Source: an uncultured Isosphaeraceae bacterium (GTDB lineage: Bacteria; Planctomycetota; Planctomycetia; Isosphaerales; Isosphaeraceae). From it: a stretch of 64,000 nucleotides of DNA. Each line of letters opens with the position of its first letter. Positions within the stretch are counted from its first letter, which is position 1. The position numbers were made by a program, and so were the translations under genes. The notes under the pieces were generated by a model. That model worked only from the letters and a program-made list of their open reading frames with translations, had not been told where the DNA came from and did no database searches. Shown here in pieces: positions 15,831 through 55,482 of the stretch. The DNA lies in the NCBI GenBank assembly GCA_963830625.1, contig CAWHMZ010000020.1:1-64000 (forward strand), given 5' to 3'.

Positions 15831-15944
15831 CTGCGCAACCCCCAGTACACGCGTTTGAACCCTTCGGCCTTCGAGCAACTCTTCAAAGTCACGCTCGACT
15901 CACCTAAGTGGAACCGCAGAAAACTCCGGGCGATTGTGGTGTAG
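15543..15944 (+). CDS. Conserved hypothetical 133-aa protein (MATYFLVVDELVPHRGCQF...), paralog of ORF 5834.
   Basis: Between the two copies the pattern of substitutions is synonymous-rich (cct/ccg, ctg/ctc, gta/gtc, tct/tcc, aaa/aag), which indicates a real coding gene under selection. Confidence 0.65.
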   Translation: MATYFLVVDELVPHRGCQFSVRVWRQAGQPPLVLFSQVPGHPPPNVCSSFLANLTLRNFLGYSLPTPVFFELSEWKQQTRACRVRFETIGPELRPILRNPQYTRLNPSAFEQLFKVTLDSPKWNRRKLRAIVV

Positions 15945-16026
15945 GCTTCCAGCCTGCACGCTGGGCAGGCGAGACGCCTGCACCACAAACATTGTGCGTG
16001 GCCACTTAGTTGAAAGGAGCAACCTG

Positions 16027-16971
16027 ATGGAGCGCCTGGCATCGATTGTGAAGCAGGGGTTCTACCCTGCGCCGCCGGAGGCGCTCGCCGGTATCCTCCG
16101 GCATCTGAAGGTCCCTGACCCGCCCCCAGATCCGAAGAAGGGCGAGGATATAAACGTCCTCGACCCCTGTGCCGGTGAAGGAAAGGCCCTCGTGCAGCTT
16201 GCCGAGGGCCTTGGCGTTTCTACGGGCCACGTCTTCGCGGTCGAGCTGAACGGGAGCCGCGCGGCCAGGATCGCGGAGGCTTACCCCGACGTCCGCCTGC
16301 TCGGTCCGTGCAGCTTTGAGGCGACCCGCATCACGCGCCACTCCGTCGGGCTCGTGTACCTCAACAGCCTGTATGACGACGAGTTCGGCGGCGGCGGGAG
16401 GGAGGAGACCACCTTCCTCCGCCAGGCCGTCGACCTCCTGGTCCCCGGCGGCATCCTGGTCATGGTCTGCCCGGTCAACCAGGTCTACGGAAAGGTTGTG
16501 ATGTGTGAGCTCCTCGACACCTGGTTTGACCAGCTCGAGCTGTACCTGTTCCCCGACAACTGCCGTTCGTTCAAAGAGTGCGTGGTGTTCGGCCGTCGTC
16601 GCAAGACGGCGCTGACCGACAACCTGATCTTCCAGGAAGGAATACTGACGGGCCGGGGCATCCGCCGAAGTTTCGCAGCGCCCGTCGTTAGACACACACA
16701 CTCCACTGCGTTGTCGGACACCCACACCGCACGTCGTCCGACACCGATACTGCACGGCCTGCAGAGTCGGTCGCGGGGCAATGGGTACCTTACGGCACCC
16801 AGGATTATGGATGTCTGGCAACCCCTCGTTTTTGAGGAGGTCCGGGGTCGAAACGACCGCGTTCCTCAGCCGGTCAAGTGCTGCGCGTGTCGACCTGTAT
16901 TCGCCCCAGACGTCCATGATCTGTTCGTGCCGATCAAATCGACGGTACCGCATGTTCGGCGATCGAATTAA
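16027..16971 (+). CDS. Class I SAM-dependent methyltransferase-like protein, of the DUF6094-type found on integrative/conjugative elements. The C-terminus from about 16700 looks chimeric with a dispersed repeat.
   Basis: RBS AAGGAG 7 nt upstream of ATG 16027. Motifs MERLASIVKQGFYPAPPE and LDPCAGEGKAL (SAM-binding motif I). The tail LSDTHTARRP... is shared with the repeat at 20135-20228. Confidence 0.55.
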   Translation: MERLASIVKQGFYPAPPEALAGILRHLKVPDPPPDPKKGEDINVLDPCAGEGKALVQLAEGLGVSTGHVFAVELNGSRAARIAEAYPDVRLLGPCSFEATRITRHSVGLVYLNSLYDDEFGGGGREETTFLRQAVDLLVPGGILVMVCPVNQVYGKVVMCELLDTWFDQLELYLFPDNCRSFKECVVFGRRRKTALTDNLIFQEGILTGRGIRRSFAAPVVRHTHSTALSDTHTARRPTPILHGLQSRSRGNGYLTAPRIMDVWQPLVFEEVRGRNDRVPQPVKCCACRPVFAPDVHDLFVPIKSTVPHVRRSN

Positions 16972-17889: not shown

Positions 17890-18147
17890 TCAGTCTTCCA
17901 AGCGGAGTTCCTCGAGGGCTTGCGCCTTGAGAAGATCGAGCTGGAGTTGGGCCAGCGCTTCCGGCGACAACGCCTCGACCTGTCGCTTGACTCCGGCAGA
18001 CATCGGGCCGAATTTGGCTTCCATTAGCCGCAGGGCCGACCGCCGCTCCCCCTGCTCGATGCCGCGTTCGATGCCGCGTTCGATGCCGCGTTCGTAGGTG
18101 GTCTTCATGAGGGGTTCAACCTCGTGATACGCCTCGGTGTGCAACAA
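17890..18147 (-). CDS. DUF4351 domain fragment: the C-terminal domain of the Rpn/transposase_31 PD-(D/E)XK family. The nuclease part is missing.
   Basis: GIERGIERGIEQG (three tandem 15-bp units), then ALRLMEAKFGPMSAGVKRQVEALSPEALAQLQLDLL, typical of DUF4351. Confidence 0.6.
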   Translation of the reverse strand: MLHTEAYHEVEPLMKTTYERGIERGIERGIEQGERRSALRLMEAKFGPMSAGVKRQVEALSPEALAQLQLDLLKAQALEELRLED

Positions 18148-18547
18148 CGCTTGTAGCCGCTCCGTCTGGGCGCTCGAGCTCAGTGGAGGTGGCCAGTGAC
18201 GGTGTTCGCCGTGTTAGCCATCTGCTTCCCCCATGGCCTGCCTGGCCACATGCGCGAGCGACTTGAAAAGTCGCTGAAGTTCAATGCCGCGCCATTCGTA
18301 TCTTAATCATAACCTGCGCCATCATTCTCGGCACCGTCGAACGGAACGCCGACCGGTCCTTGCCGACGTGGCGCGACCGGGAGGTCGTGGTGACCAGGAG
18401 CGCCCGTCGCAAGCCAGCGCCGGCTTCGCATGGTGTGGCAGCCGACGCGCCAACACTTCCCTTCGGCCATCAGTCGCTCCAGAGCCGATGGTTCGATGTA
18501 GCGAGTAACAAAACAGCCCCTCAGTGGACCCGCTCAACGGTGCGGTG

Positions 18548-18605
18548 CGGCCGCCGCGAGCGATCGGACCGATCGGACGGATTGGACGGATCAGACGCGG
18601 CGGCC
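18548..18605. repeat. ~55-bp inverted repeat, left copy. Its partner is at 20566-20623. Contains the 9-bp tandem units ccgatcgga / cggattgga.
   Basis: The reverse complement of 20566-20623 matches with about 3 mismatches (gcggccgccgcg.gcgatcggaccgatcggacggat.ggacggatcagacgc.gcggccgg). Confidence 0.75.
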
Positions 18606-18882
18606 GGCGCGGTTCTTCGGCCTGGAAACCCTACCCAAGACCCGTGCTGTGATGCGGTCGCACTTAGGAAGCCTGGCCTACATTGCGCGTCGTCGTCGGG
18701 GCCACTGAGTTCGTTCCGTCTACTCAATAATCCGCTCAACGCCTTGCGGCATCGGAGAAGGAAGCCGCATAGTCGCCTTTCGCTCCGGCGAAAGGACGCA
18801 TTTCAGCGCCCGATGCCTTGCGGATCGGAGAAGGAAGCGGGACGACGCGCGACCTGGGGTTGTGCAGCGCTGAGCTGCGCTC

Positions 18883-19111
18883 AACGCCTTCCGCGCCCCT
18901 GCGTGAGGGGCGATAGCGGACTTCGCGCTGCTCGCCCAGGCGGCCGCGTTCCAATCCACGCCCGTGCGTGAGGGGCGATAGGCCGTGCGGTCATCCGGGC
19001 TCGCCTTCAAACGGTTTCAATCCACGCCTCTGCGTGAGGGGCGATCTTTGTCTGGACCCAAGCTAATCGCCAAGGTGCGGTTTCAATCCACGCCCCTGCG
19101 TGAGGGGCGAT
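18883..19111 (-). CRISPR. CRISPR mini-array with type I-C-like 32-nt repeats. Four repeats (R1 degenerate at the trailer end) and three spacers of 33, 34 and 34 nt. Predicted transcription is on the minus strand, with the leader at about 19112-19278.
   Basis: Repeats at 18883-18914, 18948-18979, 19014-19045 and 19080-19111. Plus-strand consensus is GTTTCAATCCACGCCCCTGCGTGAGGGGCGAT. Its reverse complement, ATCGCCCCTCACGCAGGGGCGTGGATTGAAAC, has the I-C hallmark stem followed by GTGGATTGAAAC. Spacers are unique. No cas genes occur in the window. Confidence 0.8.
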
Positions 19112-19278
19112 GCATCTTCCCGATTTCAGACATCCACCGTTTGGCGTCGTTTGCCAGCAGCCGTTCATCCATGGATCACGCGGTCGGGAAAAACCGCGTG
19201 CTCCGGTGGCTTGCAACGTGCAGAAGAAGGGCGTCTGAAATCACAAACTGAGCATGGTGGACCGTGCCCCAATGAACA

Positions 19279-19731
19279 TCATGGATGCAGATTGGGGTCT
19301 TCCACCGCCAATCGCTCCACGGCGGCGGCAGCGTTGAGGTCCTTGTCGGCCGAAACGAGCACCATGCCGCCCTGGCTGATGCGGTTCAGTTCGCTGGCGG
19401 CGGCCAGTTGAACGGCGTCGTAGGCGCGCAGAGCGTACCTGTTGGCCAATGTACTGGCGTCGGCCAGAAGCGAGGGCGTGACCTCGAGGACGGTATACCG
19501 CCCGGCCACGTGTTCGCGAAACCGCGACAGGAAGGACGACGCCTGCGCCGAACGGATGGTTCTCCCTGCGCGACGGCGGGCGATGGCGGACGTCACCTCG
19601 ACGATGGTGATGCGCGCCAGGAAGATTTGGTTGCCTGTCCTGTAGTGCGTGAGACTACGAACCCAAGCGGTGCCGCCCTCCTGGACGTAACGCTTGACGA
19701 GAGCGCTCGAATCGACGAAATACGCCGCCAC
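19279..19731 (-). CDS. PIN-domain toxin (VapC-like).
   Basis: GTG start. MAAYFVDSSALVKRY...IVEVTSAIARR...YDAVQLAAA gives the PIN acidic-residue pattern. The stop of the upstream antitoxin overlaps (taaggtg). Confidence 0.75.
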   Translation of the reverse strand: MAAYFVDSSALVKRYVQEGGTAWVRSLTHYRTGNQIFLARITIVEVTSAIARRRAGRTIRSAQASSFLSRFREHVAGRYTVLEVTPSLLADASTLANRYALRAYDAVQLAAASELNRISQGGMVLVSADKDLNAAAAVERLAVEDPNLHP

Positions 19732-19734
19732 CTT

Positions 19735-20057
19735 ACCGCCGCTCGCGGATGATGGTTTCCGAAAGCGGCTCTCCCTTGATTACGATGGGGGGGACATCAT
19801 CATCGTCAATGTCCAGGGCGGGGTCGGGAAGCTGGCTGACGAGGCCAGACGCGAGCAACCGCCGATTGAGCTCGTCGGGCGTGAGCGGCTTTTTCTCAAG
19901 GGCCGACTCTGCGCCCGCAGCTTCTTGCCAGGCTTGGGCATGGTTTGCTTGAGCCGTTCCAGAGCGTCGCTGACCACAGCATCCTCGCTGGCGTAAAGGC
20001 CCGCGCGCACCGCCTCGTGGATGAACCGCTCCTGGTCTTTCGATAGACGTATGGTCA
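19735..20057 (-). CDS. Ribbon-helix-helix / ParD-like antitoxin, with a 1-nt frameshift in an A-run (gagaaaaagcc, about 19890).
   Basis: MTIRLSKDQERFIHEAVRAGLYASEDAVVSDALERLKQT in one frame, then ...EKKPLTPDELNRRLLASGLVSQLPDPALDIDDDDVPPIVIKGEPLSETIIRERR* in the next frame, ending at the toxin start. Confidence 0.65.
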
Positions 20058-20134
20058 TAGCAATCATCCCCTTTAGTTTCAGCTTACCACGGCGGTCGGC
20101 CATTGCCAATCTGAAAGCAAGTGTCTGGTCGAGG

Positions 20135-20345
20135 ATTGTTGTCGGACACCCACACCGCACGGCCTGTAGTTTCGGTCGCGGGGCAATGGGTACCTTACGG
20201 CACCCAGGATTATGGATGTCTGGCAACCCGTCTCTCAATTGTCTCGACAGTGTTGAGACAATCTGCTCGCGGTACGCGGCGCGACGCGAGCCGAGGATCT
20301 CGCCCCGGATGCGCCGGCCGACCTGCCAGTAGCGCGAGAAGCGGA
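20135..20345. repeat. Dispersed repeat fragments. 20135-20228 matches 16715-16830. 20228-20340 matches 6770-6880 (DUF1016 5' region, including the imperfect palindrome ttgtctcgacNgtgttgagacaa).
   Basis: Nucleotide similarity read by eye. ORF 19780..20352 translates as a chimera of a DUF1016 N-terminus and the shared 'LPDIHNPGCRKVPIAPRP' segment. Confidence 0.7.
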
Positions 20346-20565
20346 CACCCATCGTCTGCGGCGGTACCGTGCTTGAATGCCGATTTCCCCGCGGATGCGT
20401 GTCTGGAACCGGTTGATCGTGACGGCGACGAAGCCAATCGCGCCAAAGTCGAAGATGTTGCCCGGAACGTCATGCTCGCGCGAGGCAAAGCTGGACTTGC
20501 CTAAAACGAACCACGGATCGCGCGGATTGACACTGACGGGGAAACTGCGAGCTGCCCCGGCCGCT

Positions 20566-20623
20566 GCGTCTGATCCGTCCCATCCGTCCGATCGGTCCGA
20601 TCGCGCGCGGCGGCCGGCCTGAA
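20566..20623. repeat. ~55-bp inverted repeat, right copy (partner of 18548-18605).
   Basis: See the left copy. Confidence 0.75.
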
Positions 20624-21167
20624 CAATAGGACCGTTCGGACGGCGGCGGCGGCCAGTCACAAGCGGTCTGCGCCGCGATTGCGCGCTTTGACGTTTTCTT
20701 CATCCGCTCCCATCGGGATGTCCCGATCGCGGGAAACGCGCTGCAAGTCCGCACAGCTCGAGCGACAACCGCCGCTCACTCCGACAGCACAGCCCTCTCG
20801 TCCCCACTGACCGCGACAACCGCCTGCACCGATCAATCCGATCGCGCTGGTGAGAACGACGACTCAGCGCGAAATCCGCATAATTCACCCGCACGGCCTC
20901 CGTCCGCGCGCCATCTTATCTCTGAAGAGAGGCCGCCGCATCCGGCAGCCTTCTCTCGCATCCCGCAGTTACAACGATCGGACAGAATTGTGCAAACGAA
21001 AAAACACCCCGCGCTGATCACCTGGCGGCGGCCGGCGGCCCGCGTCAGCCCGAAGAGCTACCGAGGGTTCAGGCCGTTCCATTGCCGGATGGTCAACACT
21101 CCCTCGCTTGCGCTTCGGGCTGGTATGAGCTGCGATTGGTCTGGCAGCCAGAGAGGGTCGGCGCGGC

Positions 21168-22982
21168 TTGCCGAAAAGGAAGTGCGCAATGGCCGCCACG
21201 AAACTCGAGAGCATCGATGACCGCCCGGACGCGAAGACGAACGGCCGGGTGACGAAAACGAAACCCAGAGCCACGCGCCGTTCATGCGCCGGCGGAACGC
21301 GGCTCAGCCGCGCCGAGAGCAGCCGCCGCAACGCCCAGAAGAGCACCGGCCCGCGCACCGCGGCCGGCAAGGCCAGAAGCCGCTATAACGCGCTCAAGCA
21401 CGGCATGACTGCCGAGTCGACCCTGCTGCCGGGCGAAGACGCCGCCGAATTCGAAGCCCTGCGCCGGCGGCTGCACGACGACATCGGTGCCCGCAATAGC
21501 CTCGAAGCCGTTTTGATCGACCGCATCGCCTGCGACGACTGGATGGCGACCCGCGCCAATCGCGCCGCCGCCGCGCAGCTTGCCTACCGCCTGCGGCACC
21601 AGTCACTCAAAGAGTCCTTCGCCGAGAAGGACGCCGTCATCGCGCTGGGCCAGCGGCTGCTGAGAGACGTCTCCCGCGCCAGGAGTTTCCACCCAAGCGA
21701 GCAGATCGGCGGTCAATATCACCCCGCCCGCGTGGTCGCGAAGCTGGAAAACACCATCACGGGCTGCGATTGGCTGCTTCAACGTTTACACCGGCTCAAA
21801 GAGCGGTTGGACGAGCCCGGAGTATGGCTGCGGTCCGACGGGCATGAGCTGGTCCGGCTCATGGGCAAGTATCAGAGCGAGCTCACCGCTGACGATCAGG
21901 TCGCCCTCGCGCTTCTGGCCAGTGAATGCGTCCACGAAGACTCCGCGGACCACGCCTTCGCACATGCCAGGGCCAAGGAAGAGGCCATCAGCCAGTCGTT
22001 GGAGCGGGCGCGTGCCGAGGCCAAGGCAGGGTCAGCAGCCCGGCGCAGTGCCGCAGTCACCGACGAGGCCAAGCCCGAAGACGGCAAGAAGAGGCCAGTC
22101 CGCGGCCCGGCACGCCAGGAACATGCAAGGCTGACCCGACAACTCGAACGGACTTCGAAGGTTCTCGGGATGCTGAAGAATGAGATTGACGAGGACGCGA
22201 CACGCGGGCCGTGCCCGATGAGCCTGGAGAAGCTCAATCCACCCAGCGTCGAGGAAGCGCGCCGGCGGCTGGCGCAGGAGATCGACGAGCAGATGTTGCG
22301 CATCAGGCAGATCGTGGCCTTGCGCCGGGAAATCCTGGCAGAAGACATCGCCGAAGCCGCTCGGCGCCTGGCGTTCGAGCCCGGTTCCGAGGGCGACAAG
22401 CAGCGGCGTTATGTCCTCTCACGAGGCCGGCTTTTGATCCAATCAATCAAAACGTTCATCGCGCTCCGCAAAGCCAGCAACGACGGCACGCTTGACGGGC
22501 AGGGTGAGGGGGATGACGACCGGGATGAAGCCGACCTCGAAATCGATGCTCTGATCGGCCCCCAGAGCCCGCTGGGTCCTGACAATTCCAGCTCTGCGCC
22601 GGTGGTCGCGGTGGGTCAGTTAGCCGACCCGTCACTGGTGCTTCCCGCAACCGACCCCGCGACGCCCGACCAGCAGGACGCCAAAATGCCCGAATCCGCG
22701 GAGCAAATCGATACGCAAACTCCTGCAGCGGAAACACTTTGTGGCGAGAAGAAAATTCTGCGAAACGAAGCTGAGGCGCACGGCCAGGCACCGCAGACCG
22801 ACCAGCCGGCTGATGTAGCAGGCACGGTCCCCGTGCCGTCAAGCCCCCTTGCGAGCCAACTGTCGGCGCCGGCAGTCGTCGTAGCAGGCACGGTCCCCGT
22901 GCCGTCAAGCCCGTTGCCAAACCCCTCGTCGCCGATCGAACAATACATGGAGAAATACGGAAAGACGGGGCACCCGCGCTGA
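21168..22982 (+). CDS. Hypothetical 604-aa protein with a C-terminal tandem AGTVPVPSSPL repeat.
   Basis: A long intact ORF. Its codon usage matches the neighbouring real genes. No domain recognised. Confidence 0.5.
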   Translation: MPKRKCAMAATKLESIDDRPDAKTNGRVTKTKPRATRRSCAGGTRLSRAESSRRNAQKSTGPRTAAGKARSRYNALKHGMTAESTLLPGEDAAEFEALRRRLHDDIGARNSLEAVLIDRIACDDWMATRANRAAAAQLAYRLRHQSLKESFAEKDAVIALGQRLLRDVSRARSFHPSEQIGGQYHPARVVAKLENTITGCDWLLQRLHRLKERLDEPGVWLRSDGHELVRLMGKYQSELTADDQVALALLASECVHEDSADHAFAHARAKEEAISQSLERARAEAKAGSAARRSAAVTDEAKPEDGKKRPVRGPARQEHARLTRQLERTSKVLGMLKNEIDEDATRGPCPMSLEKLNPPSVEEARRRLAQEIDEQMLRIRQIVALRREILAEDIAEAARRLAFEPGSEGDKQRRYVLSRGRLLIQSIKTFIALRKASNDGTLDGQGEGDDDRDEADLEIDALIGPQSPLGPDNSSSAPVVAVGQLADPSLVLPATDPATPDQQDAKMPESAEQIDTQTPAAETLCGEKKILRNEAEAHGQAPQTDQPADVAGTVPVPSSPLASQLSAPAVVVAGTVPVPSSPLPNPSSPIEQYMEKYGKTGHPR

Positions 22983-23033: not shown

Positions 23034-25095
<2,062 letters not shown>

Positions 25096-25179
25096 GCTCC
25101 TCGGCTTCGAGCGCTGGCACGCCTGGCAGATCGTTCGCGCGCTGCGACCAGGTCGCGTTTGCGTGCCGGCGGTGCCGGC

Positions 25180-26060
25180 CGTCGGCGGGCATCGACTGGG
25201 CGTGGCGGCGCAGGCGGCTCGTTCGCCCGGGGCACTGTCGTGCGTGGCGGCGCTCGCTTATCTCGCTTCGGGGATCACGGTGATCGGGCCCGACCAGCTT
25301 GGCGTCTTGCGCCGGTTCGGGCGATATCAGCCCCCGCTCTTCGGCCCGGGCCTGCACCTCCGCTGGCCGGCGCCGTTCGAGACAGTGATCGCCGTCGAGC
25401 CCGATCGATCGCGGGTGGCTCGGGTCGGGCTGCCTCGGCCGCGTCGGCCGCCGCGCAGCCCGTGGGCTGGAGTGCCACTCACGGCGGCCCGCGCGACGAG
25501 TCGGCCCTGTTCTTCACGGGCGACGAAAACCTGGTCGAGCTCGCCGGAGTGGTCGAATATCACTTTGGTACCGAGGCGACTGCCCGAGCTGCTTGTTCGG
25601 GGTCGCGTCGTCGACGACACCGTGAAGGCGGCGGCCGAAGGAGTCTTCCGCGAAGCGGCCGGCCGGACGCCGCTGGAGGCGATCCTGGTCAGCGGCCGGC
25701 GGCAGTTCGAGTCGGAGCTCGCCGCGGCGCTTGCAGAGCGGCTCGAGAGCTCGGGCGTGGGCGTGGTGATCGACAAGGTGCGGGTCGTCGATGCCCATCC
25801 GCCGCGCGAGGTCGTGCCGGCCTATCGCGATGTCTCGGCGGCCGTCTCCGACGCCGAGCGCATGCTCGAACCAGGCCCGTGCCGAGGCCGCCAAGCGCCA
25901 CTGGTCGGCAATCGCCGAGGCCGAGGCGGCCCGCGACGCGCGCCAGGACGCGCGCCGACCGCCTGGTGAGCCGGGCCGCGGGCGAAAGGCGGCCTTCCTG
26001 GCCAAGGCCGGCGTCGCACGCCCAGGCGCCTGCGCTCACCGAGTTCCGCCTGCTTTGGGA
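25180..26060 (+). CDS. SPFH/band-7 protein, HflK-like, frameshifted. In one frame it is continuous with the end of the ATPase, with no stop codon.
   Basis: LAYLASGITVIGPDQLGVLRRFGRYQPPLFGPGLHLRWPAPFETV, then ...FFTGDENLVELAGVVEYHFG..., then ...ILVSGRRQFESELAAALAERLESSGVGVVIDKVRVVDAHPPREVVPAYRDV... Confidence 0.65.
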
Positions 26061-26250
26061 CACGCTGGCCACGACCTTGCCCGGCCGTCCCAAGCTGATC
26101 CTCGACCCCAAGGCCGCCGGCCGGCGCCACCTCTGGCTCGCCGACCCCGAGACGTTCAGTCCCGGCGCCTGGCCGCGCGCTGGCGCCGGCCGCAGCCGAG
26201 ACCCCGAGCACCGGAACCCGACGATTGAACGAAAGCCCGCGAGTCCAGCG

Positions 26251-27310
26251 ATGAGCAAACTCCGAGGAAAATGGATCATCATGGGATTGCTCTTGGCCGT
26301 GCTCGTCGCGCTCGCGCGCTCGATCGTGATCGTCGATCAGACCGAGTCGGTCTTACGTCACCGAATTCGGCCGGCCGGTGCGGTTGATCGAGCGGCCGGG
26401 CCTCCATTTCAAGTGGCCTCATCAGAGCGCCCGCGCGTTCGACCGCCGGCTCCAGCTCGACACGCCCACCGCCGCGCGAGATGTTGACGCGGGACAAGAA
26501 GAACCTCGAGGTCGCCTGGTACGTGAGCTGGCGAATCGCCGACGTCGAGCGGTTCCTGCGCACCGTGCGCACGGTGCCCGACGCGCAGAGCGCGGCTGGA
26601 AGACATGGCGGCGTCGGTGCTGGCGGCCGAGCTGGGCGTTCACGATCTGGGCGACTGGTCACGGTGAGCGATCAGTCGGCTCTGGACGCGATGATGACCG
26701 ACGTGACCGGCGCGTGGCCGAGCAGGCCGCGCGGGAGTATGGTCTGGAGGTCGTCGCCGTGCGGCTGCGGCGGCTGAATTATCCCGAGGAGGTCCGTTCG
26801 GCCGTTTTCGAGCAGATCCGCAGCGAGCGCCAGCGGGTCGCCGCGGCGACGCGGGCCGAGGGAGAGAGCCAGGCTCGCGTGATCAGAAGCGCCGCCGACC
26901 GCGAGCGCGCCGCCGTGATCGCCGCGGCCGAGTCCGACGCCGCCCGCGTCGATCGGCGAGGGCGAGGCCCAGGCCGCCCGCATCGCCAACGAAGCGCAGG
27001 CCGCCGACCCGGCGTTCTACCAGTTCTTGAAGACGCTCGAAACCTATCGCGCGGCCCTCGACGCCAAGACGACGCTCGTGCTCTCGGCCGACAGCAGCTT
27101 CCTGCGGCTCTTGACCCAGGGCGTGCCCGACCCCGGCGACCGCAAAGCCGGCAAATTCTGCTGGGCCCGCGAGCACGAGCGACCCGGTCGCCGCGGCGCG
27201 CCGCCCGGTCGCACAGCAGCTCTGCGCTGCCAGTCGCCCAGCCGCGCAGGAGCCGGCACGCCAGCCCTGCTCATCGTCGACCTTTCACGCGCGAGCCTCA
27301 TACCCTCGGC
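26251..27310 (+). CDS. SPFH/band-7 protein, HflC-like, frameshifted.
   Basis: MSKLRGKWIIMGLLLAVLVALARSIVIVDQTESVL, then ...RLIERPGLHFKWP..., then ...MLTRDKKNLEVAWYVSWRIADVERFLRTV..., then ...YGLEVVAVRLRRLNYPEEVRSAVFEQIRSERQRVAAATRAEGESQARVIRS... Confidence 0.65.
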
Positions 27311-38724: not shown

Positions 38725-39174
38725 ATGTCAAACATGGTCAGACCGCCTCGTCCCGGGGCGTGGGTCGGCTTGCCCTGGACGGGGCTCGTCGTCGTTGTCT
38801 TGGGTGTGTCGGGGTGCGCATCGGTCGCACAGGACGTCGATGCCTACTACCGGCAGATGGCCGTCAATTATCTGGAAGCTCGCGACAATGCCAAGATGGA
38901 GGCAACCACGCTCGAGAACGAATCAAAAGTGCTGGCAGTGACCGGCGAGTCGCACAAGCTGAAGCGCGCCCAGCGGAGACTGGCCAAGATCCAGGCCTGG
39001 GAGGAGAAGTGCGATAAAGAGGCCGTGCGGTTCGAGAAGGCCGCGGAATGGACCGAGGCCCACTTCCATCTGGCGAAGCCGGCAAAGAAGAGCGACTTGC
39101 CCGGCCAGCAAGCTCCCGAAGACTCAGCCGTCCGGCAGGCAGCAGCCGCCTCAGACGACGGAGCCGCCCATTGA
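38725..39174 (+). CDS. Hypothetical lipoprotein.
   Basis: ATG at 38725. Signal peptide with lipobox LGVSGC. Coiled-coil-like remainder. Confidence 0.5.
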   Translation: MSNMVRPPRPGAWVGLPWTGLVVVVLGVSGCASVAQDVDAYYRQMAVNYLEARDNAKMEATTLENESKVLAVTGESHKLKRAQRRLAKIQAWEEKCDKEAVRFEKAAEWTEAHFHLAKPAKKSDLPGQQAPEDSAVRQAAAASDDGAAH

Positions 39175-53064: not shown

Positions 53065-53137
53065 GCGCCCGTAGCTCAATGGATAGAGTCGCGGACTTCG
53101 AATCCGAAGGTTGTAGGTTCGAATCCTACCGGGCGCG
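53065..53137 (+). tRNA. tRNA-Arg (anticodon TCG).
   Basis: Manually folded. 7-bp acceptor stem GCGCCCG/CGGGCGC. D-arm with GG. Anticodon stem CGGA/TCCG with loop CTTCGAA (U33, anticodon TCG, A37). T-arm GTAGG-TTCGAAT-CCTAC. Discriminator G. A promoter-like TTGCTC-17-TAGATT lies upstream. Confidence 0.85.
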
Positions 53138-53429: not shown

Positions 53430-53850
53430 GGGTTGCGCCGCCGTCGTCGTCGTTTCGGAGCCCTCGGAGCGGGGCGACATCACGTAGCCTGCGGTGTGAA
53501 CCGCAGGTCAGGTTGCGAATCGCTGGCATTTGGGTTGCGCCGCCGTCGTTTCGGAGCCCCCGGAGCGGGGCGACATCACGTAGCCTGCGCTGTGAACCGC
53601 AGGTCTGGCATTTGTGTTGCGTCGTCGTCGTTTCGGAGCCCGCGGAGCGGGGCGACATCACGTAGCCTGCGGTGTGAACCGCAGGTGTGGCATTTGTGTT
53701 TTGTCGTCGTTTCGGAGCCCGCGGAGCCGGGCGACATCGCGTAGCCTGCGGTGTGAACCGCAGGTGTGGCATTTGTGTTTTGTCGTCGTTTCGGAGCCCG
53801 CGGAGCGGTGCGACATCACGTAGCCTGCGGTGTGAACCGCAGGTCAGCCG
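53430..53850. repeat. Five tandem copies of an ~82-bp unit. Each contains the hairpin CCTGCGG-TGTGAA-CCGCAGG (7-bp stem, 6-nt loop).
   Basis: Units start at about 53430, 53525, 53606, 53691 and 53768. A conserved ~62-nt core (cgtcgtttcggagccc.cggagcggggcgacatcacgtagcctgcggtgtgaaccgcaggt) plus an ~20-nt variable head (tggcatttgtgtt...). Confidence 0.85.
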
Positions 53851-54234: not shown

Positions 54235-55482
54235 TGGTCCGGCCGAAATGAGAGTCTCCCGGTAGGATGAGCCACGGAGGGACTCATGAGAAGGCGAAGG
54301 ACCGCCGAGGAAGTGGCACGCTTGCTGCGTGAAGCCGACCACGACCTGGCCAAGGGACTGACAGTCTCTGACATCTGCCGCAAGCAGGGCTTTGCCCAGG
54401 CTACCTATTACAAGTGGCGGCAGCGGCAGGCGCCCGGCCAGGATGCTACCGATCGCCGCTGCCGCGAGCTGGAAGGCGAGCTCGACCGCCTCAAGAGGCT
54501 GGTGGCTGATTTGCTCCTGGACAAGGCGATGCTCCAGGAGATCGCAAAAAAAAAGTGGTGACACCTAACGAGCAACGAACCGCCGCGGATTTCCTGGGAG
54601 AGCACTTCGGGGTCTCTCAGCGGCGGGCGTGCCGTGTGATGGATCGCTCTCGCTCGACCTTGCGGTATCGCCGCAAGCGCCGGGCTGACGAGCCGGCATT
54701 GAGCCGGGAGATGAAACGCTTGGCGCGTCGGCATCCGCGTTACGGGTACCGGCGAATCCATGCCCTCCTGCTCCGGCGTGGCTGGTCGGTCAACCTCAAA
54801 CGGGTGCGGCGGCTCTGGAATGAGCTGGGACTGCGTTGACCGTTGAGGCTGAGAAAAACGAGAAAACTGGGCCCCAAACCGGGGGTCAGCGCCAACAGTT
54901 GCGTCCAGCAACCGGCGAAGTTCAAGAACGACGTTTGGACCTGCGACTTCATCCACGATCGGACCGCCAGCGGTCGTCCTCTCAAGTGGTTGACGCTGGT
55001 GGACGAATATACTCGGGAGTGCCTGGTCCTGCACCCAGCCGAGTCGATAAGGGGAGCTGATGTTCGTCGGATCTTGGCCCGGGTGATCGGTCGTCGCGGG
55101 GCGCCGACCCGCATCAGAAGCGACAACGGATCGGAATTCATTTGCGAGGCTTTGGTGGGTTGGCTGCCAAGGGCGGGGGCCGACCCAATCCCGGTGGCAC
55201 CAGGAAGCCCTTGGGAGAACGGATATATCGAGTCATTCCACAGTCGGTTGCGCGACGAGTTCCTAGAGCGGGTAGAATTCGAGGACGTCGCGGACGCTCG
55301 AGCAAAGGGGGCCTGGTACCGGCGGGAATACAACGCGGTGCGGCCGCACAGTTCGTTGTCGTATGCGACGCCGAACGAATTCAGTGCAGCCTGCGATCGG
55401 AAGGAGAATCGGAAAAGGCTTGTTGCATAGTGACAAGTTGATCTGCACAGTCGTTGAACGAACTCTCATTAGCCGTGGACCA
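54235..55482 (+). mobile_element. IS3-family insertion sequence. orfA is 54286..54561. orfB (DDE/rve) is 54555..55430 and carries an in-frame TGA at about 54836-54838. Slippery A9G site at 54546-54555. Terminal IRs TGGTCCGGCCGAAATGAGAG / CTCTCATTAGCCGTGGACCA.
   Basis: OrfA has an HTH and a leucine zipper (...LKRLVADLLLDKAMLQEIAKKKW*). OrfB has ...VWTCDFIHDRTASGRPLKWLTLVDEYTRECL...RIRSDNGSEF...PGSPWENGYIESFHSRLRDE.... The ends are TG...CA. The element sits between inverted tandem sub-repeats at 54100-54220 and 55500-55620. Confidence 0.85.

What the first reader, a model, noticed from the sequence alone, without database searches (positions are those of the whole stretch)
18548..20623. Orphan type I-C-like CRISPR mini-array next to a PIN/RHH toxin-antitoxin pair, in a ~2.1 kb segment bounded by 55-bp inverted repeats
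The array itself is clean.
- Four 32-nt repeats. Two are near-identical, one has 2 mismatches, and the distal one is degenerate in the way trailer repeats are.
- Three unique spacers of 33-34 nt.
- Reading on the minus strand, the repeat carries the I-C-type stem plus the GTGGATTGAAAC handle.

No cas gene lies anywhere in 64 kb.

The array's predicted leader (19112-19278) abuts the 3' end of an intact VapC-like PIN toxin gene. That toxin's ParD/RHH antitoxin sits directly upstream of it.

The whole array-plus-TA unit, together with decayed PDDEXK fragments, is bracketed by near-perfect 55-bp inverted repeats. A standalone mini-array coupled to a TA module recalls two things: CRISPR-regulated toxin-antitoxin (CreTA-like) arrangements, and mini-arrays carried by mobile elements. 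Neither is expected in a Planctomycetota-like genome.
Basis: partly seen in the sequence, partly recalled or inferred. Interest (0 to 1): 0.8.

Follow-up and report, generated by a model that had tools for sequence, protein, structure and literature searches.

The report
Decaying cas-less CRISPR mini-array beside toxin-antitoxin
A real but degenerate four-repeat type I-C CRISPR array with no cas genes nearby happens to sit next to an ordinary VapBC-type toxin-antitoxin cassette in a variable stretch of a planctomycete chromosome, and no test supported a functional link between them, so apart from an unexplained flanking inverted repeat it is ordinary.

Summary
On the minus strand there are four type I-C repeats and three unique spacers (19111-18878). 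A 167-nt leader-like gap follows an intact PIN toxin gene. An RHH/ParD-like antitoxin gene lies upstream. A DUF1016 (PDDEXK-family) N-terminal fragment is present. A 60-68 nt inverted repeat flanks everything.

Corrections:
- Every repeat differs. Two carry changes that break the stem.
- The last repeat is a chimera that joins the array to two copies of a second, unrelated repeat family.
- The antitoxin is frameshifted as assembled. The assembly is full of frameshifts, so this may be an error.

No I-C cas gene or remnant lies in the 64 kb.

The functional reading is not supported:
- No spacer has CreA-type seed complementarity to the TA region, or any other match.
- In four related genomes the TA homology stops at the cassette borders, with no array or inverted repeat nearby.
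- The inverted repeat has no target-site duplication, no other copy and no nearby recombinase.
- The locus lies about 2.4 kb from a synteny breakpoint.

Best reading: a cas-less, eroding array remnant next to an unrelated TA cassette. The inverted repeat stays unexplained. Whether cas genes exist elsewhere in the genome could not be tested. Interest is low.

The parts
18548..18615 (.). Left arm of the inverted repeat. It is itself a long imperfect hairpin: an 11-bp GC stem (CGGCCGCCGCG/CGCGGCGGCCG) encloses four tandem 9-nt units (GATCGGACG) and the palindrome GATCGGACCGATC.
   Evidence: I1, I4; period 9, 4 copies; -48.3 kcal/mol, z -3.65; 60 nt at 95% to the right arm.
18733..18838 (-). Remnant of a second repeat family. 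It has two 32-33 nt copies: R6' at 18765-18733 and R5' at 18838-18807 (GCTTCCTTCTCCGAT(G)CCGCAAGGC...). They are separated by a unique 41-nt spacer that contains a perfect hairpin.
   Evidence: (D5, D9). No match in IMG/VR or plasmids. Rfam CRISPR-DR hits are only at chance level.
18839..18877 (-). Unique 39-nt spacer between the chimeric repeat R4 and R5'.
18878..18914 (-). R4, the chimeric terminal repeat. Its first 21 nt are the I-C repeat with an intact stem-loop. Its last 16 nt (CGGAAGGCGTTGAGCG) match the 3' end of the second repeat family, including a 13-nt exact run with R6'.
   Evidence: (D2, D5).
18915..19111 (-). Type I-C array proper: R1 (19111-19080, consensus), S1 (34 nt), R2 (19045-19014, G17A, which breaks the stem), S2 (34 nt), R3 (18979-18948, G16C breaks the stem and A29G alters the handle), S3 (33 nt).
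   Evidence: fold energy falls from -12.9 to -8.5 and -9.2 kcal/mol, with the canonical stem lost. CRISPR-DR9 scores 30.2 bits for R1 and only 19-20 bits for R2 and R3.
19112..19278 (-). Leader-like gap of 167 nt at 56% GC. No sigma-70-like promoter was found. It shows no similarity to the Paraglaciecola I-C leader.
   Evidence: TA-cassette homology to relatives ends at about 19272.
19279..19731 (-). PIN-domain (VapC-like) toxin gene, 150 aa, intact.
   Evidence: PF01850. (3460 homologues; named hits are VapC). (four acidic residues invariant).
19733..20058 (-). RHH/ParD-like antitoxin gene. As assembled, the reading frame shifts somewhere between about 19932 and 19895. Intact homologues are 112-114 aa.
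20209..20238 (-). The only sigma-70-like promoter match in the region (TTGAGA-18-CATAAT), about 150 nt upstream of the antitoxin start.
   Evidence: This is a consensus match only.
20221..20337 (-). Truncated N-terminal fragment of a DUF1016 (YhcG-like PDDEXK nuclease family) gene. The rest of the gene is absent.
   Evidence: PF17761, E 1e-5, 26 bits against a 32.8-bit cut-off, profile positions 23-61 of 137.
20549..20616 (.). Right arm of the inverted repeat, also a hairpin.
   Evidence: (-40.5 kcal/mol).

Best explanation
This is an eroding, cas-less remnant of a type I-C CRISPR array. It is joined through a chimeric repeat to the stump of a second array. It lies in a non-syntenic, fragment-rich stretch of an Isosphaeraceae-like planctomycete chromosome.

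**The TA pair.** The neighbouring PIN/RHH pair is an ordinary VapBC-type type II toxin-antitoxin cassette. It moves independently and sits next to the array by chance. It may occupy the place where the 3' end of a cas operon once stood.

**How it works (inferred).**
- If the cell has I-C Cas proteins elsewhere, R1-S1-R2 and its neighbours could still yield some crRNA. Otherwise the array is inert.
- The TA acts on its own: the antitoxin binds the toxin and represses its own promoter.
- At most the TA protects the surrounding DNA from deletion.
- There is no regulatory link between array and TA.

**Shown versus inferred.** Shown: the anatomy, the repeat type, the lack of cas genes in the window, the lack of spacer targets, and the lack of a conserved array-TA association. 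Inferred: the decay, the history, and the absence of function.
For: **The repeat is type I-C.** It is 31/32 identical to a ~68-repeat array beside cas2 and Cas1c and 29/32 identical to the D. vulgaris I-C repeat.

**Signs of decay.**
- All four repeats differ.
- R2 and R3 each carry an uncompensated stem-breaking change, and R3 also carries a handle change.
- R4 is chimeric and continues into a different repeat family. The simplest cause is a deletion between two same-orientation arrays.
- The same architecture is seen in Paraglaciecola, where the terminal repeat GTCGCCCCTCACGCAGGGGC+TGAACCG leads into an I-E-like array.

**No cas genes or remnants in 64 kb**.

**No protospacers.** None in the window, in phage or plasmid records, or in IMG/VR.

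**The TA cassette is independent.** Homology in four relatives (75-89% nt) spans only window positions 20058 down to 19272-19320. There are no arrays or inverted repeats nearby. Eight more distant loci also have none.

**Variable context.**
- Synteny with two related MAG contigs starts only at about 23050-23165. To the left of that point the relatives carry GatCAB, transaldolase and an AIRS-domain gene instead.
- A truncated DUF1016 gene lies inside the segment.

**Literature.** About 23% of CRISPR arrays are more than 20 kb from any cas cluster and 12% are orphans. Orphans are shorter, and many appear to be degrading (PMC7145637).
Against: - R1 is a perfect consensus repeat, and a leader-sized gap (167 nt, against 175 and 187 nt in two real I-C loci) is retained. 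A partly working array used in trans is therefore possible.
- The 60-nt, 95%-identical inverted repeat that brackets exactly this segment is not explained by decay.
- The assembly has many indel errors. The antitoxin frameshift cannot count as evidence of decay. The repeat substitutions could in principle be errors too, though substitutions are less typical of such assemblies.
- The remaining ~37 kb of the contig and the rest of the genome could not be searched for cas genes.
Confidence: 0.6

Rival explanations
1. It is a working 'distant' mini-array. I-C Cas proteins encoded elsewhere in the genome transcribe and process it, and its three spacers give ordinary immunity. The TA neighbour is irrelevant.
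For: R1 is a consensus repeat, and R4 keeps an intact stem-loop. Leader-sized spacing is retained. Many chromosomal arrays lacking a neighbouring cas cluster have repeats compatible with cas systems in trans (PMC7145637).
Against: R2 and R3 carry stem-breaking changes, and R3 has a changed 5' handle. No promoter-like site lies in the leader. No protospacer was found anywhere searched. No cas genes lie in 64 kb.
Confidence: 0.2
2. The inverted-repeat-bounded 2.07-kb segment is a non-autonomous mobile cassette. Its two hairpin ends are recognised by a transposase or recombinase encoded elsewhere. It carries a mini-array that borrows the host's I-C Cas proteins, and a TA module that makes it hard to lose.
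For: - The inverted repeat is real: 60 nt at 95%, unique in the window, with each arm holding iteron-like 9-nt repeats and a palindrome.
- The segment lies in a non-syntenic region.
- A phage contig (L003) carries a two-repeat mini-array with the same repeat, so mobile elements do carry such arrays.
Against: - There is no target-site duplication at the arm ends (read directly).
- No other copy of the arm exists in the window, JGI metagenomes, IMG/VR or plasmids.
- No transposase, integrase or recombinase was detected in the adjacent ORFs.
- TA relatives lack the inverted repeat.
- The cargo includes a truncated gene fragment.
Confidence: 0.07
3. It is a CreTA-like or crRNA-like regulatory circuit. 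An RNA from the mini-array guides Cascade to repress the TA promoter, making the cell dependent on Cas.
For: Only the adjacency and shared orientation of the TA and the array. A 12-nt match links the 3' end of S2 to 20154-20165, upstream of the antitoxin.
Against: - CreA acts through seed pairing at nucleotides 1-5 and 7-11 next to a TTC PAM (PMC8501985). No spacer has this in the TA region, even with 2 seed mismatches allowed.
- The 12-nt match is PAM-distal and lacks a PAM. An equal-length match occurs by chance at 39020-39031.
- The toxin is a protein.
- No Cascade genes are nearby.
- The association is not conserved.
Confidence: 0.02
4. It is a decoy. The repeat-bearing RNAs act like RNA anti-CRISPRs (Racr) or viral crRNA-like RNAs, soaking up I-C Cas proteins on behalf of a mobile element.
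For: Degenerate repeats away from cas genes resemble the solitary repeat units and mini-arrays described for Racrs (PMC10651486) and for phage crRNA-like RNAs (bioRxiv 10.1101/2024.10.29.618823).
Against: No phage or plasmid hallmark gene lies in the surrounding ~8 kb. The context is chromosomal, flanked by housekeeping genes.
Confidence: 0.03
5. The inverted repeats are recombination sites, and the 1.9-kb segment flips as an invertible switch.
For: Near-identical inverted arms flank a segment whose genes and array all read in one direction.
Against: No invertase is nearby. The arms are far longer and more structured than those of typical invertons. No alternative orientation could be looked for.
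Confidence: 0.03

Closest known systems
Orphan or distant CRISPR arrays (arrays more than 20 kb from, or without, cas genes), here of type I-C (Dvulg) repeat class
   Same: It has 32-nt repeats with a 7-bp stem, a 5-nt loop and the ...GTGGATTGAAAC 3' end. Spacers are 33-34 nt. It is small, its repeats are heterogeneous, and no cas genes are nearby. This matches the short, apparently degrading orphan arrays described in PMC7145637.
   Different: It ends in a chimeric repeat that leads into a second repeat family. It is bracketed, together with a TA cassette, by a long inverted repeat.
VapBC-type type II toxin-antitoxin modules (PIN toxin with an RHH/ParD-like antitoxin)
   Same: The antitoxin gene lies immediately upstream, 1 nt from the toxin start. 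The PIN domain has all four acidic residues. There are thousands of homologues, many in Planctomycetota, and they occur in unrelated genomic contexts.
   Different: As assembled, the antitoxin is frameshifted in its variable linker. This may be an assembly error.
CreTA (CRISPR-regulated toxin-antitoxin) and other crRNA-like regulatory mini-arrays
   Same: Degenerate CRISPR repeats sit close to a toxin-antitoxin pair.
   Different: CreT is an RNA toxin. CreA pairs through its seed with the toxin promoter beside a PAM, and the module sits in or next to a cas operon. None of these three features is present here.
Mini-arrays carried by phages and plasmids (for example the two-repeat array on phage contig L003, Racr solitary repeats, plasmid-borne isolated arrays)
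   Same: It is a short array with a repeat compatible with a widespread I-C system. L003 carries the same repeat.
   Different: No mobile-element hallmark genes were found around the window's array. Its repeats are degenerate, whereas the two repeats on L003 are identical and have a promoter-like AT-rich region and a terminator.

Membership tests
Type I-C CRISPR array | Repeat sequence and structure of the I-C class, as found next to I-C cas operons | tested here: met
   31/32 identical to the Paraglaciecola array beside Cas1c (TIGR03640, 436 bits against a 385-bit cut-off) and cas2. 29/32 identical to D. vulgaris Hildenborough. The stem-loop is predicted for R1.
Type I-C CRISPR array | Regularly spaced repeats separated by unique spacers of about 33-35 nt | tested here: met
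   The period is 65-66 nt and the spacers are 34, 34 and 33 nt, all unique.
Type I-C CRISPR array | Adjacent cas3-cas5c-cas8c-cas7c-cas4-cas1-cas2 operon (a complete CRISPR-Cas locus) | tested here: not met
   tblastn with all seven D. vulgaris proteins gave nothing below E 0.18 in 64 kb. PADLOC listed no core Cas family.
Type I-C CRISPR array | Transcription and Cas5c processing into crRNAs | not testable with these tools
   This needs RNA data. No promoter-like site lies in the leader, and R2 and R3 have broken stems.
CreTA | A spacer-like sequence whose seed (nucleotides 1-5 and 7-11) pairs with the toxin promoter next to a PAM | tested here: not met
   no such site for any of the five spacers in 18500-20700, even with 2 seed mismatches and a TTC PAM. 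The criterion comes from PMC8501985.
CreTA | Small RNA toxin (creT) | tested here: not met
   The adjacent toxin is a 150-aa PIN protein. No RNA toxin was identified, although one cannot be excluded from sequence alone.
CreTA | Location within or beside a cas operon that encodes the effector | tested here: not met
VapBC-type type II TA | PIN-domain toxin with conserved acidic residues | tested here: met
   PF01850 at E 8.9e-9, above its cut-off. D7, E45, D105 and D129 are invariant in 9 homologues.
VapBC-type type II TA | Upstream, adjacent antitoxin gene with a DNA-binding N-terminus and an intact frame | tested here: inconclusive
   The gene is present and homologous to intact 112-114 aa antitoxins. 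It has a ParD-like N-terminus at E 1.8e-6, below cut-off. It is frameshifted as assembled, in an assembly with many frameshifts.
Transposon-like or MITE-like mobile cassette | Terminal inverted repeats | tested here: met
Transposon-like or MITE-like mobile cassette | Target-site duplication flanking the ends | tested here: not met
   The flanks ...GCGGTG | arm and arm | GCCTGAAC... share nothing (read directly).
Transposon-like or MITE-like mobile cassette | Other copies, or presence/absence polymorphism | tested here: inconclusive
   There are no other copies in the window, JGI metagenomes, IMG/VR or plasmids. The source genome and its close strains are not available.

The most novel reading that the evidence does not exclude
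The two hairpin arms are the ends of a previously undescribed non-autonomous mobile cassette. Its cargo is a mini-CRISPR array that exploits the host's type I-C Cas proteins, plus a toxin-antitoxin pair that enforces its retention. In short, a selfish 'guide-RNA cassette'.
Probability: 0.06. Interest if true: 0.7.

Novelty: new member of a known kind. Interest (0 to 1): 0.22.

Why it matters
As it stands, it matters little. Cas-less, degrading arrays and VapBC cassettes in variable chromosomal regions are both common, and their adjacency here is not conserved.

Two details could be useful:
- **Chimeric junction repeats.** Here and in Paraglaciecola, a chimeric repeat joins an I-C array to an array of another type. 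This is a clear footprint of array-array deletion or fusion. It may help in reconstructing how arrays are lost.
- **The inverted repeat.** It is long, hairpin-forming and iteron-like. If it recurred elsewhere, it would define a new small mobile or recombinogenic element in Planctomycetota.

Tried and rejected
1. **A decayed cas1 upstream of the TA.** tblastn with Paraglaciecola Cas1c hit 20411-20226 at E 0.16. The same stretch matches DUF1016_N at E 1e-5 and matches no Cas1 model in Pfam or NCBIfam. Rejected.
2. **A low-GC island with att-like direct repeats.** Local GC dips occur. Overall, 15.2-23 kb is 64% GC against 65-66% elsewhere, and the borders share no repeat of 13 nt or more. Dropped.
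3. **Finding the source genome.**
   - The repeat scan of GTDB genomes returned only Paraglaciecola.
   - The identical PIN and ATPase products (P0001, P0122) come from a 100,848-bp NCBI/ENA contig that is not indexed for retrieval.
4. **Inverted-repeat arm in other collections.** No hits in JGI metagenomes, IMG/VR or plasmids.
5. **Second repeat family in other collections.** No hits in IMG/VR or plasmids. Rfam gave only chance-level CRISPR-DR hits.
6. **Spacer targets.** No significant hit in phages, plasmids, IMG/VR, the window or the related loci.
7. **The neighbouring 604-aa and 193-aa ORFs as possible recombinases.**
   - No family, PHROG, PADLOC or PDB match.
   - The only hit for the 604-aa ORF is a hypothetical protein on a Planctomyces sp. 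SH-PL62 plasmid; it has no phage hit.
8. **Leader similarity to the Paraglaciecola I-C leader.** None.
9. **Locating two PADLOC hits.** One ORF matched the PD_DExK accessory model and one matched PDC-S02. They are not among the ORFs in 15.5-23.5 kb.
Full report
**Observation**

Read on the minus strand, the array is:
- R1, 19111-19080: ATCGCCCCTCACGCAGGGGCGTGGATTGAAAC.
- R2, 19045-19014: one mismatch.
- R3, 18979-18948: two mismatches.
- R4, 18914-18878: degenerate.

The spacers are unique and measure 34, 34 and 33 nt. None of 100 shuffles gave any match to the repeat.

A 150-aa PIN gene ends at 19279, 167 nt before R1. An antitoxin gene lies directly upstream of it.

The flanking inverted repeat is longer than stated. 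It is 68 nt at 91%, with a 60-nt core at 95% identity, E 8e-23. It occurs nowhere else in the 64 kb.

**Repeat type**

- The same repeat, 31 of 32 positions, forms a ~68-repeat array in Paraglaciecola aquimarina. That array sits directly downstream of cas2 and a Cas1 that passes NCBI's type I-C model (TIGR03640, 436 bits against a 385-bit cut-off).
- It is 29/32 identical to the repeat of the Desulfovibrio vulgaris Hildenborough I-C locus. Two of the three differences are a compensatory C-G to T-A change in the stem.
- R1 folds into the expected 7-bp stem with a 5-nt loop.

The type I-C assignment is therefore tested and met.

**Signs of erosion, and an extra feature**

- No two repeats are the same. 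R2 (G17A) and R3 (G16C) each break a stem pair without compensation. R3 also changes the handle (GAAAC to GGAAC).
- Predicted folds lose the canonical hairpin. Rfam CRISPR-DR9 scores drop from 30 bits for R1 to 19-20 bits.
- R4 is not simply degenerate. Its first 21 nt are a perfect I-C 5' half. Its last 16 nt match the 3' end of a different repeat.
- Two copies of that different repeat follow at 18838-18807 and 18765-18733 (GCTTCCTTCTCCGAT(G)CCGCAAGGC...). They are spaced by unique 39- and 41-nt sequences.
- So the I-C array is fused through a chimeric repeat to the stump of a second array-like structure. The simplest cause is a deletion between repeats of two arrays in the same orientation.
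- The Paraglaciecola locus shows the same architecture. Its terminal I-C repeat is chimeric with an adjacent I-E-like repeat.
- The second family has no match in IMG/VR or plasmids, and only chance-level Rfam hits. Its identity as a CRISPR repeat is inferred, not shown.

**cas genes**

- tblastn with all seven D. vulgaris I-C Cas proteins against the six-frame window gave nothing below E 0.18.
- Paraglaciecola Cas1c and Cas2 gave nothing below E 0.16.
- PADLOC scans of 60 and 73 ORFs listed kinases, a methyltransferase, a DrmC-like fragment and an accessory PD-DExK model. No core Cas family was listed. In the first scan only 25 of the 36 matched families were displayed.
- The one suggestive Cas1 hit (20411-20226) is better explained as a DUF1016 N-terminal fragment: Pfam E 1e-5, with no Cas1 model matching.
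It covers only profile positions 23-61, scores below the gathering threshold, and the rest of the gene is missing.

**Toxin-antitoxin pair**

- The PIN protein is intact and keeps the four acidic residues that are invariant among its homologues.
- It has thousands of relatives. The named ones are VapC toxins of Planctomycetota.
- The antitoxin (20058-19733) has a ParD-like N-terminus (E 1.8e-6, below cut-off). It is clearly homologous to intact 112-114 aa antitoxins in relatives.
- As assembled, its frame shifts in the variable linker.

I do not treat this frameshift as evidence of decay, for three reasons:
- The nearby P-type ATPase gene has its TGES, DKTGT, TGD and GDGxNDxP motifs alternating between two frames.
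- Its closest database relatives are nearly all 160-380 aa fragments from long ENA contigs.
- One relative from the same project has non-triplet gaps at the same antitoxin linker.

The assembly evidently carries many indel errors.

**Is the array-TA pairing conserved?**

No. In four related loci with DNA (75-89% nucleotide identity), homology to the window covers only 20058 down to 19272-19320. That is the two coding regions and nothing else. None of the four has an I-C repeat, the inverted-repeat core or the second repeat family, with up to 4 mismatches allowed, in the DNA held (3.4-16.5 kb per locus). Eight more distant metagenomic loci also lack an exact I-C repeat core or the arm palindrome.

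**CreTA test**

Published CreA RNAs repress the toxin promoter through seed pairing at nucleotides 1-5 and 7-11 next to a TTC PAM. They sit in cas operons beside an RNA toxin (PMC8501985).
- None of the five spacers has such a site in 18500-20700, even with two seed mismatches allowed.
- No spacer matches anything in the window at up to 10 mismatches.
- A 12-nt match links the 3' end of S2 to 20154-20165, upstream of the antitoxin. It is PAM-distal and has no PAM. An equal-length match occurs at 39020-39031.
- No significant protospacer was found in phage records, plasmids or IMG/VR.

**The inverted repeat**

Each arm is itself a strong hairpin (-48 and -40 kcal/mol). An 11-bp GC stem encloses four tandem 9-nt units and the palindrome GATCGGACCGATC. 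That is a striking structure, but nothing links it to mobility:
- The flanks show no target-site duplication.
- No other copy was found in the window, JGI metagenomes, IMG/VR or plasmids.
- The adjacent ORFs show no transposase, integrase or invertase signature.

It remains unexplained.

**Context**

- The window is chromosomal. It carries argininosuccinate synthase, SecDF, TGT, aspartate kinase and other housekeeping genes.
- It is Isosphaeraceae-like. Named hits include an Isosphaeraceae bacterium, Paludisphaera, and a plasmid of Planctomyces sp. SH-PL62, here taken to belong to the same family.
- Two related MAG contigs are syntenic with the window from about 23050-23165 rightwards for more than 10 kb. 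To the left of that point they carry GatCAB, transaldolase and an AIRS-domain gene instead.
- The finding therefore sits about 2.4 kb inside a non-syntenic region that also holds a DUF6094/mad2-like methyltransferase, a DUF4351 gene and unknown ORFs.

**Verdict**

The most likely reading (about 0.6) is an eroding, cas-less I-C array remnant fused to a second array stump. It lies by chance next to an independently mobile VapBC-type cassette in a variable chromosomal region. The TA may at most stabilise the neighbourhood.

Rivals and rough weights:
- A still-usable array served in trans by cas genes elsewhere is the main rival (about 0.2). It cannot be excluded, because the rest of the genome is out of reach.
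- A mobile cassette bounded by the inverted repeat: about 0.07.
- An RNA decoy: about 0.03.
- An invertible switch: about 0.03.
- A CreTA-like circuit: about 0.02.

Small cas-less arrays are common. About 35% of arrays lie outside CRISPR-Cas loci, and orphans are short and often appear to be degrading (PMC7145637). This is a new member of a known kind and of low interest. The inverted repeat is the only open question.

Noticed in passing
window 53459-53843 (minus strand), next to tRNA at 53065-53137: There are five copies of the Rfam Acido-Lenti-1 RNA motif: four within a 79-nt tandem repeat at 53544-53844 (3.8 copies, 94% matches) and one just before it at 53459-53507. One passes the gathering score and four fall just below it. 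They lie immediately downstream of a tRNA gene. A DrmC-like (PLD nuclease) fragment follows at 54271-54558. A tandem array of this motif in a planctomycete may be worth a look.
   Followed up: partly
window 23300-27200 and elsewhere: The assembly carries many frameshifts in conserved genes. The P-type ATPase motifs alternate between frames, the Band_7/HflK-like gene is split, and many same-strand overlapping ORFs occur across the window. The closest database homologues from the same ENA project are fragmented in the same way. This points to long-read indel errors, so single frameshifts here should not be read as pseudogenes.
   Followed up: partly
L003 5068-5165 (IMGVR_UViG_3300047160_005575): This phage contig has portal and large-terminase genes. 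Between two large genes it carries a two-repeat, one-spacer mini-array with the repeat GTCGCCCCTCACGCAGGGGCGTGGATTGAAAC. An AT-rich promoter-like stretch precedes the array and a hairpin plus T-run follows it. The contig comes from the same JGI sample as a close PIN homologue (P0004). Its spacer had no match in the loci held.
   Followed up: partly
L001 1839-2055 (Paraglaciecola aquimarina NZ_JAWDIO010000002.1): The terminal repeat of the ~68-repeat I-C array is a chimera: an I-C 5' part plus the 3' end of an I-E-like 29-nt repeat. It leads straight into three I-E-like repeats with 61-nt spacing. This is the same 'stacked arrays with a chimeric junction repeat' architecture seen in the window.
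   Followed up: partly
window 18766-18806: The 41-nt spacer between the two second-family repeats contains a perfect 8-bp hairpin (CCTTTCGC-CGGA-GCGAAAGG). That is unusual for a spacer.
   Followed up: no
window 15934-16971 and 17890-18147: A DUF6094 methyltransferase (weakly mad2-like in PADLOC, E 1e-11) and a stand-alone DUF4351 gene with a 12-nt tandem repeat (GIERGIERGIE) lie just left of the finding. These are defence-island-like neighbours without a recognisable complete system.
   Followed up: partly
window, ORF not located: In the batch PADLOC scan, one ORF matched the 'PD_DExK, CAS-associated' accessory model (E 1e-18) and one matched several PDC-S02 models (E down to 2e-36). Neither is among the ORFs between 15.5 and 23.5 kb.
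   Followed up: partly
L018 8137-9078: In one relative, an AcrVA2-like (PF26125) gene and a YopA_M-domain gene lie 0.5-3.6 kb downstream of the homologous TA cassette. This suggests that copy sits in a mobile element.
   Followed up: no
window 21168-22982: This 604-aa ORF has no family, PHROG, PADLOC or PDB match. Its only hit in the plasmid and phage record collections (no wider protein search was run for it) is a hypothetical protein on a plasmid of Planctomyces sp. SH-PL62 (35% identity over 34% of the query).
   Followed up: partly
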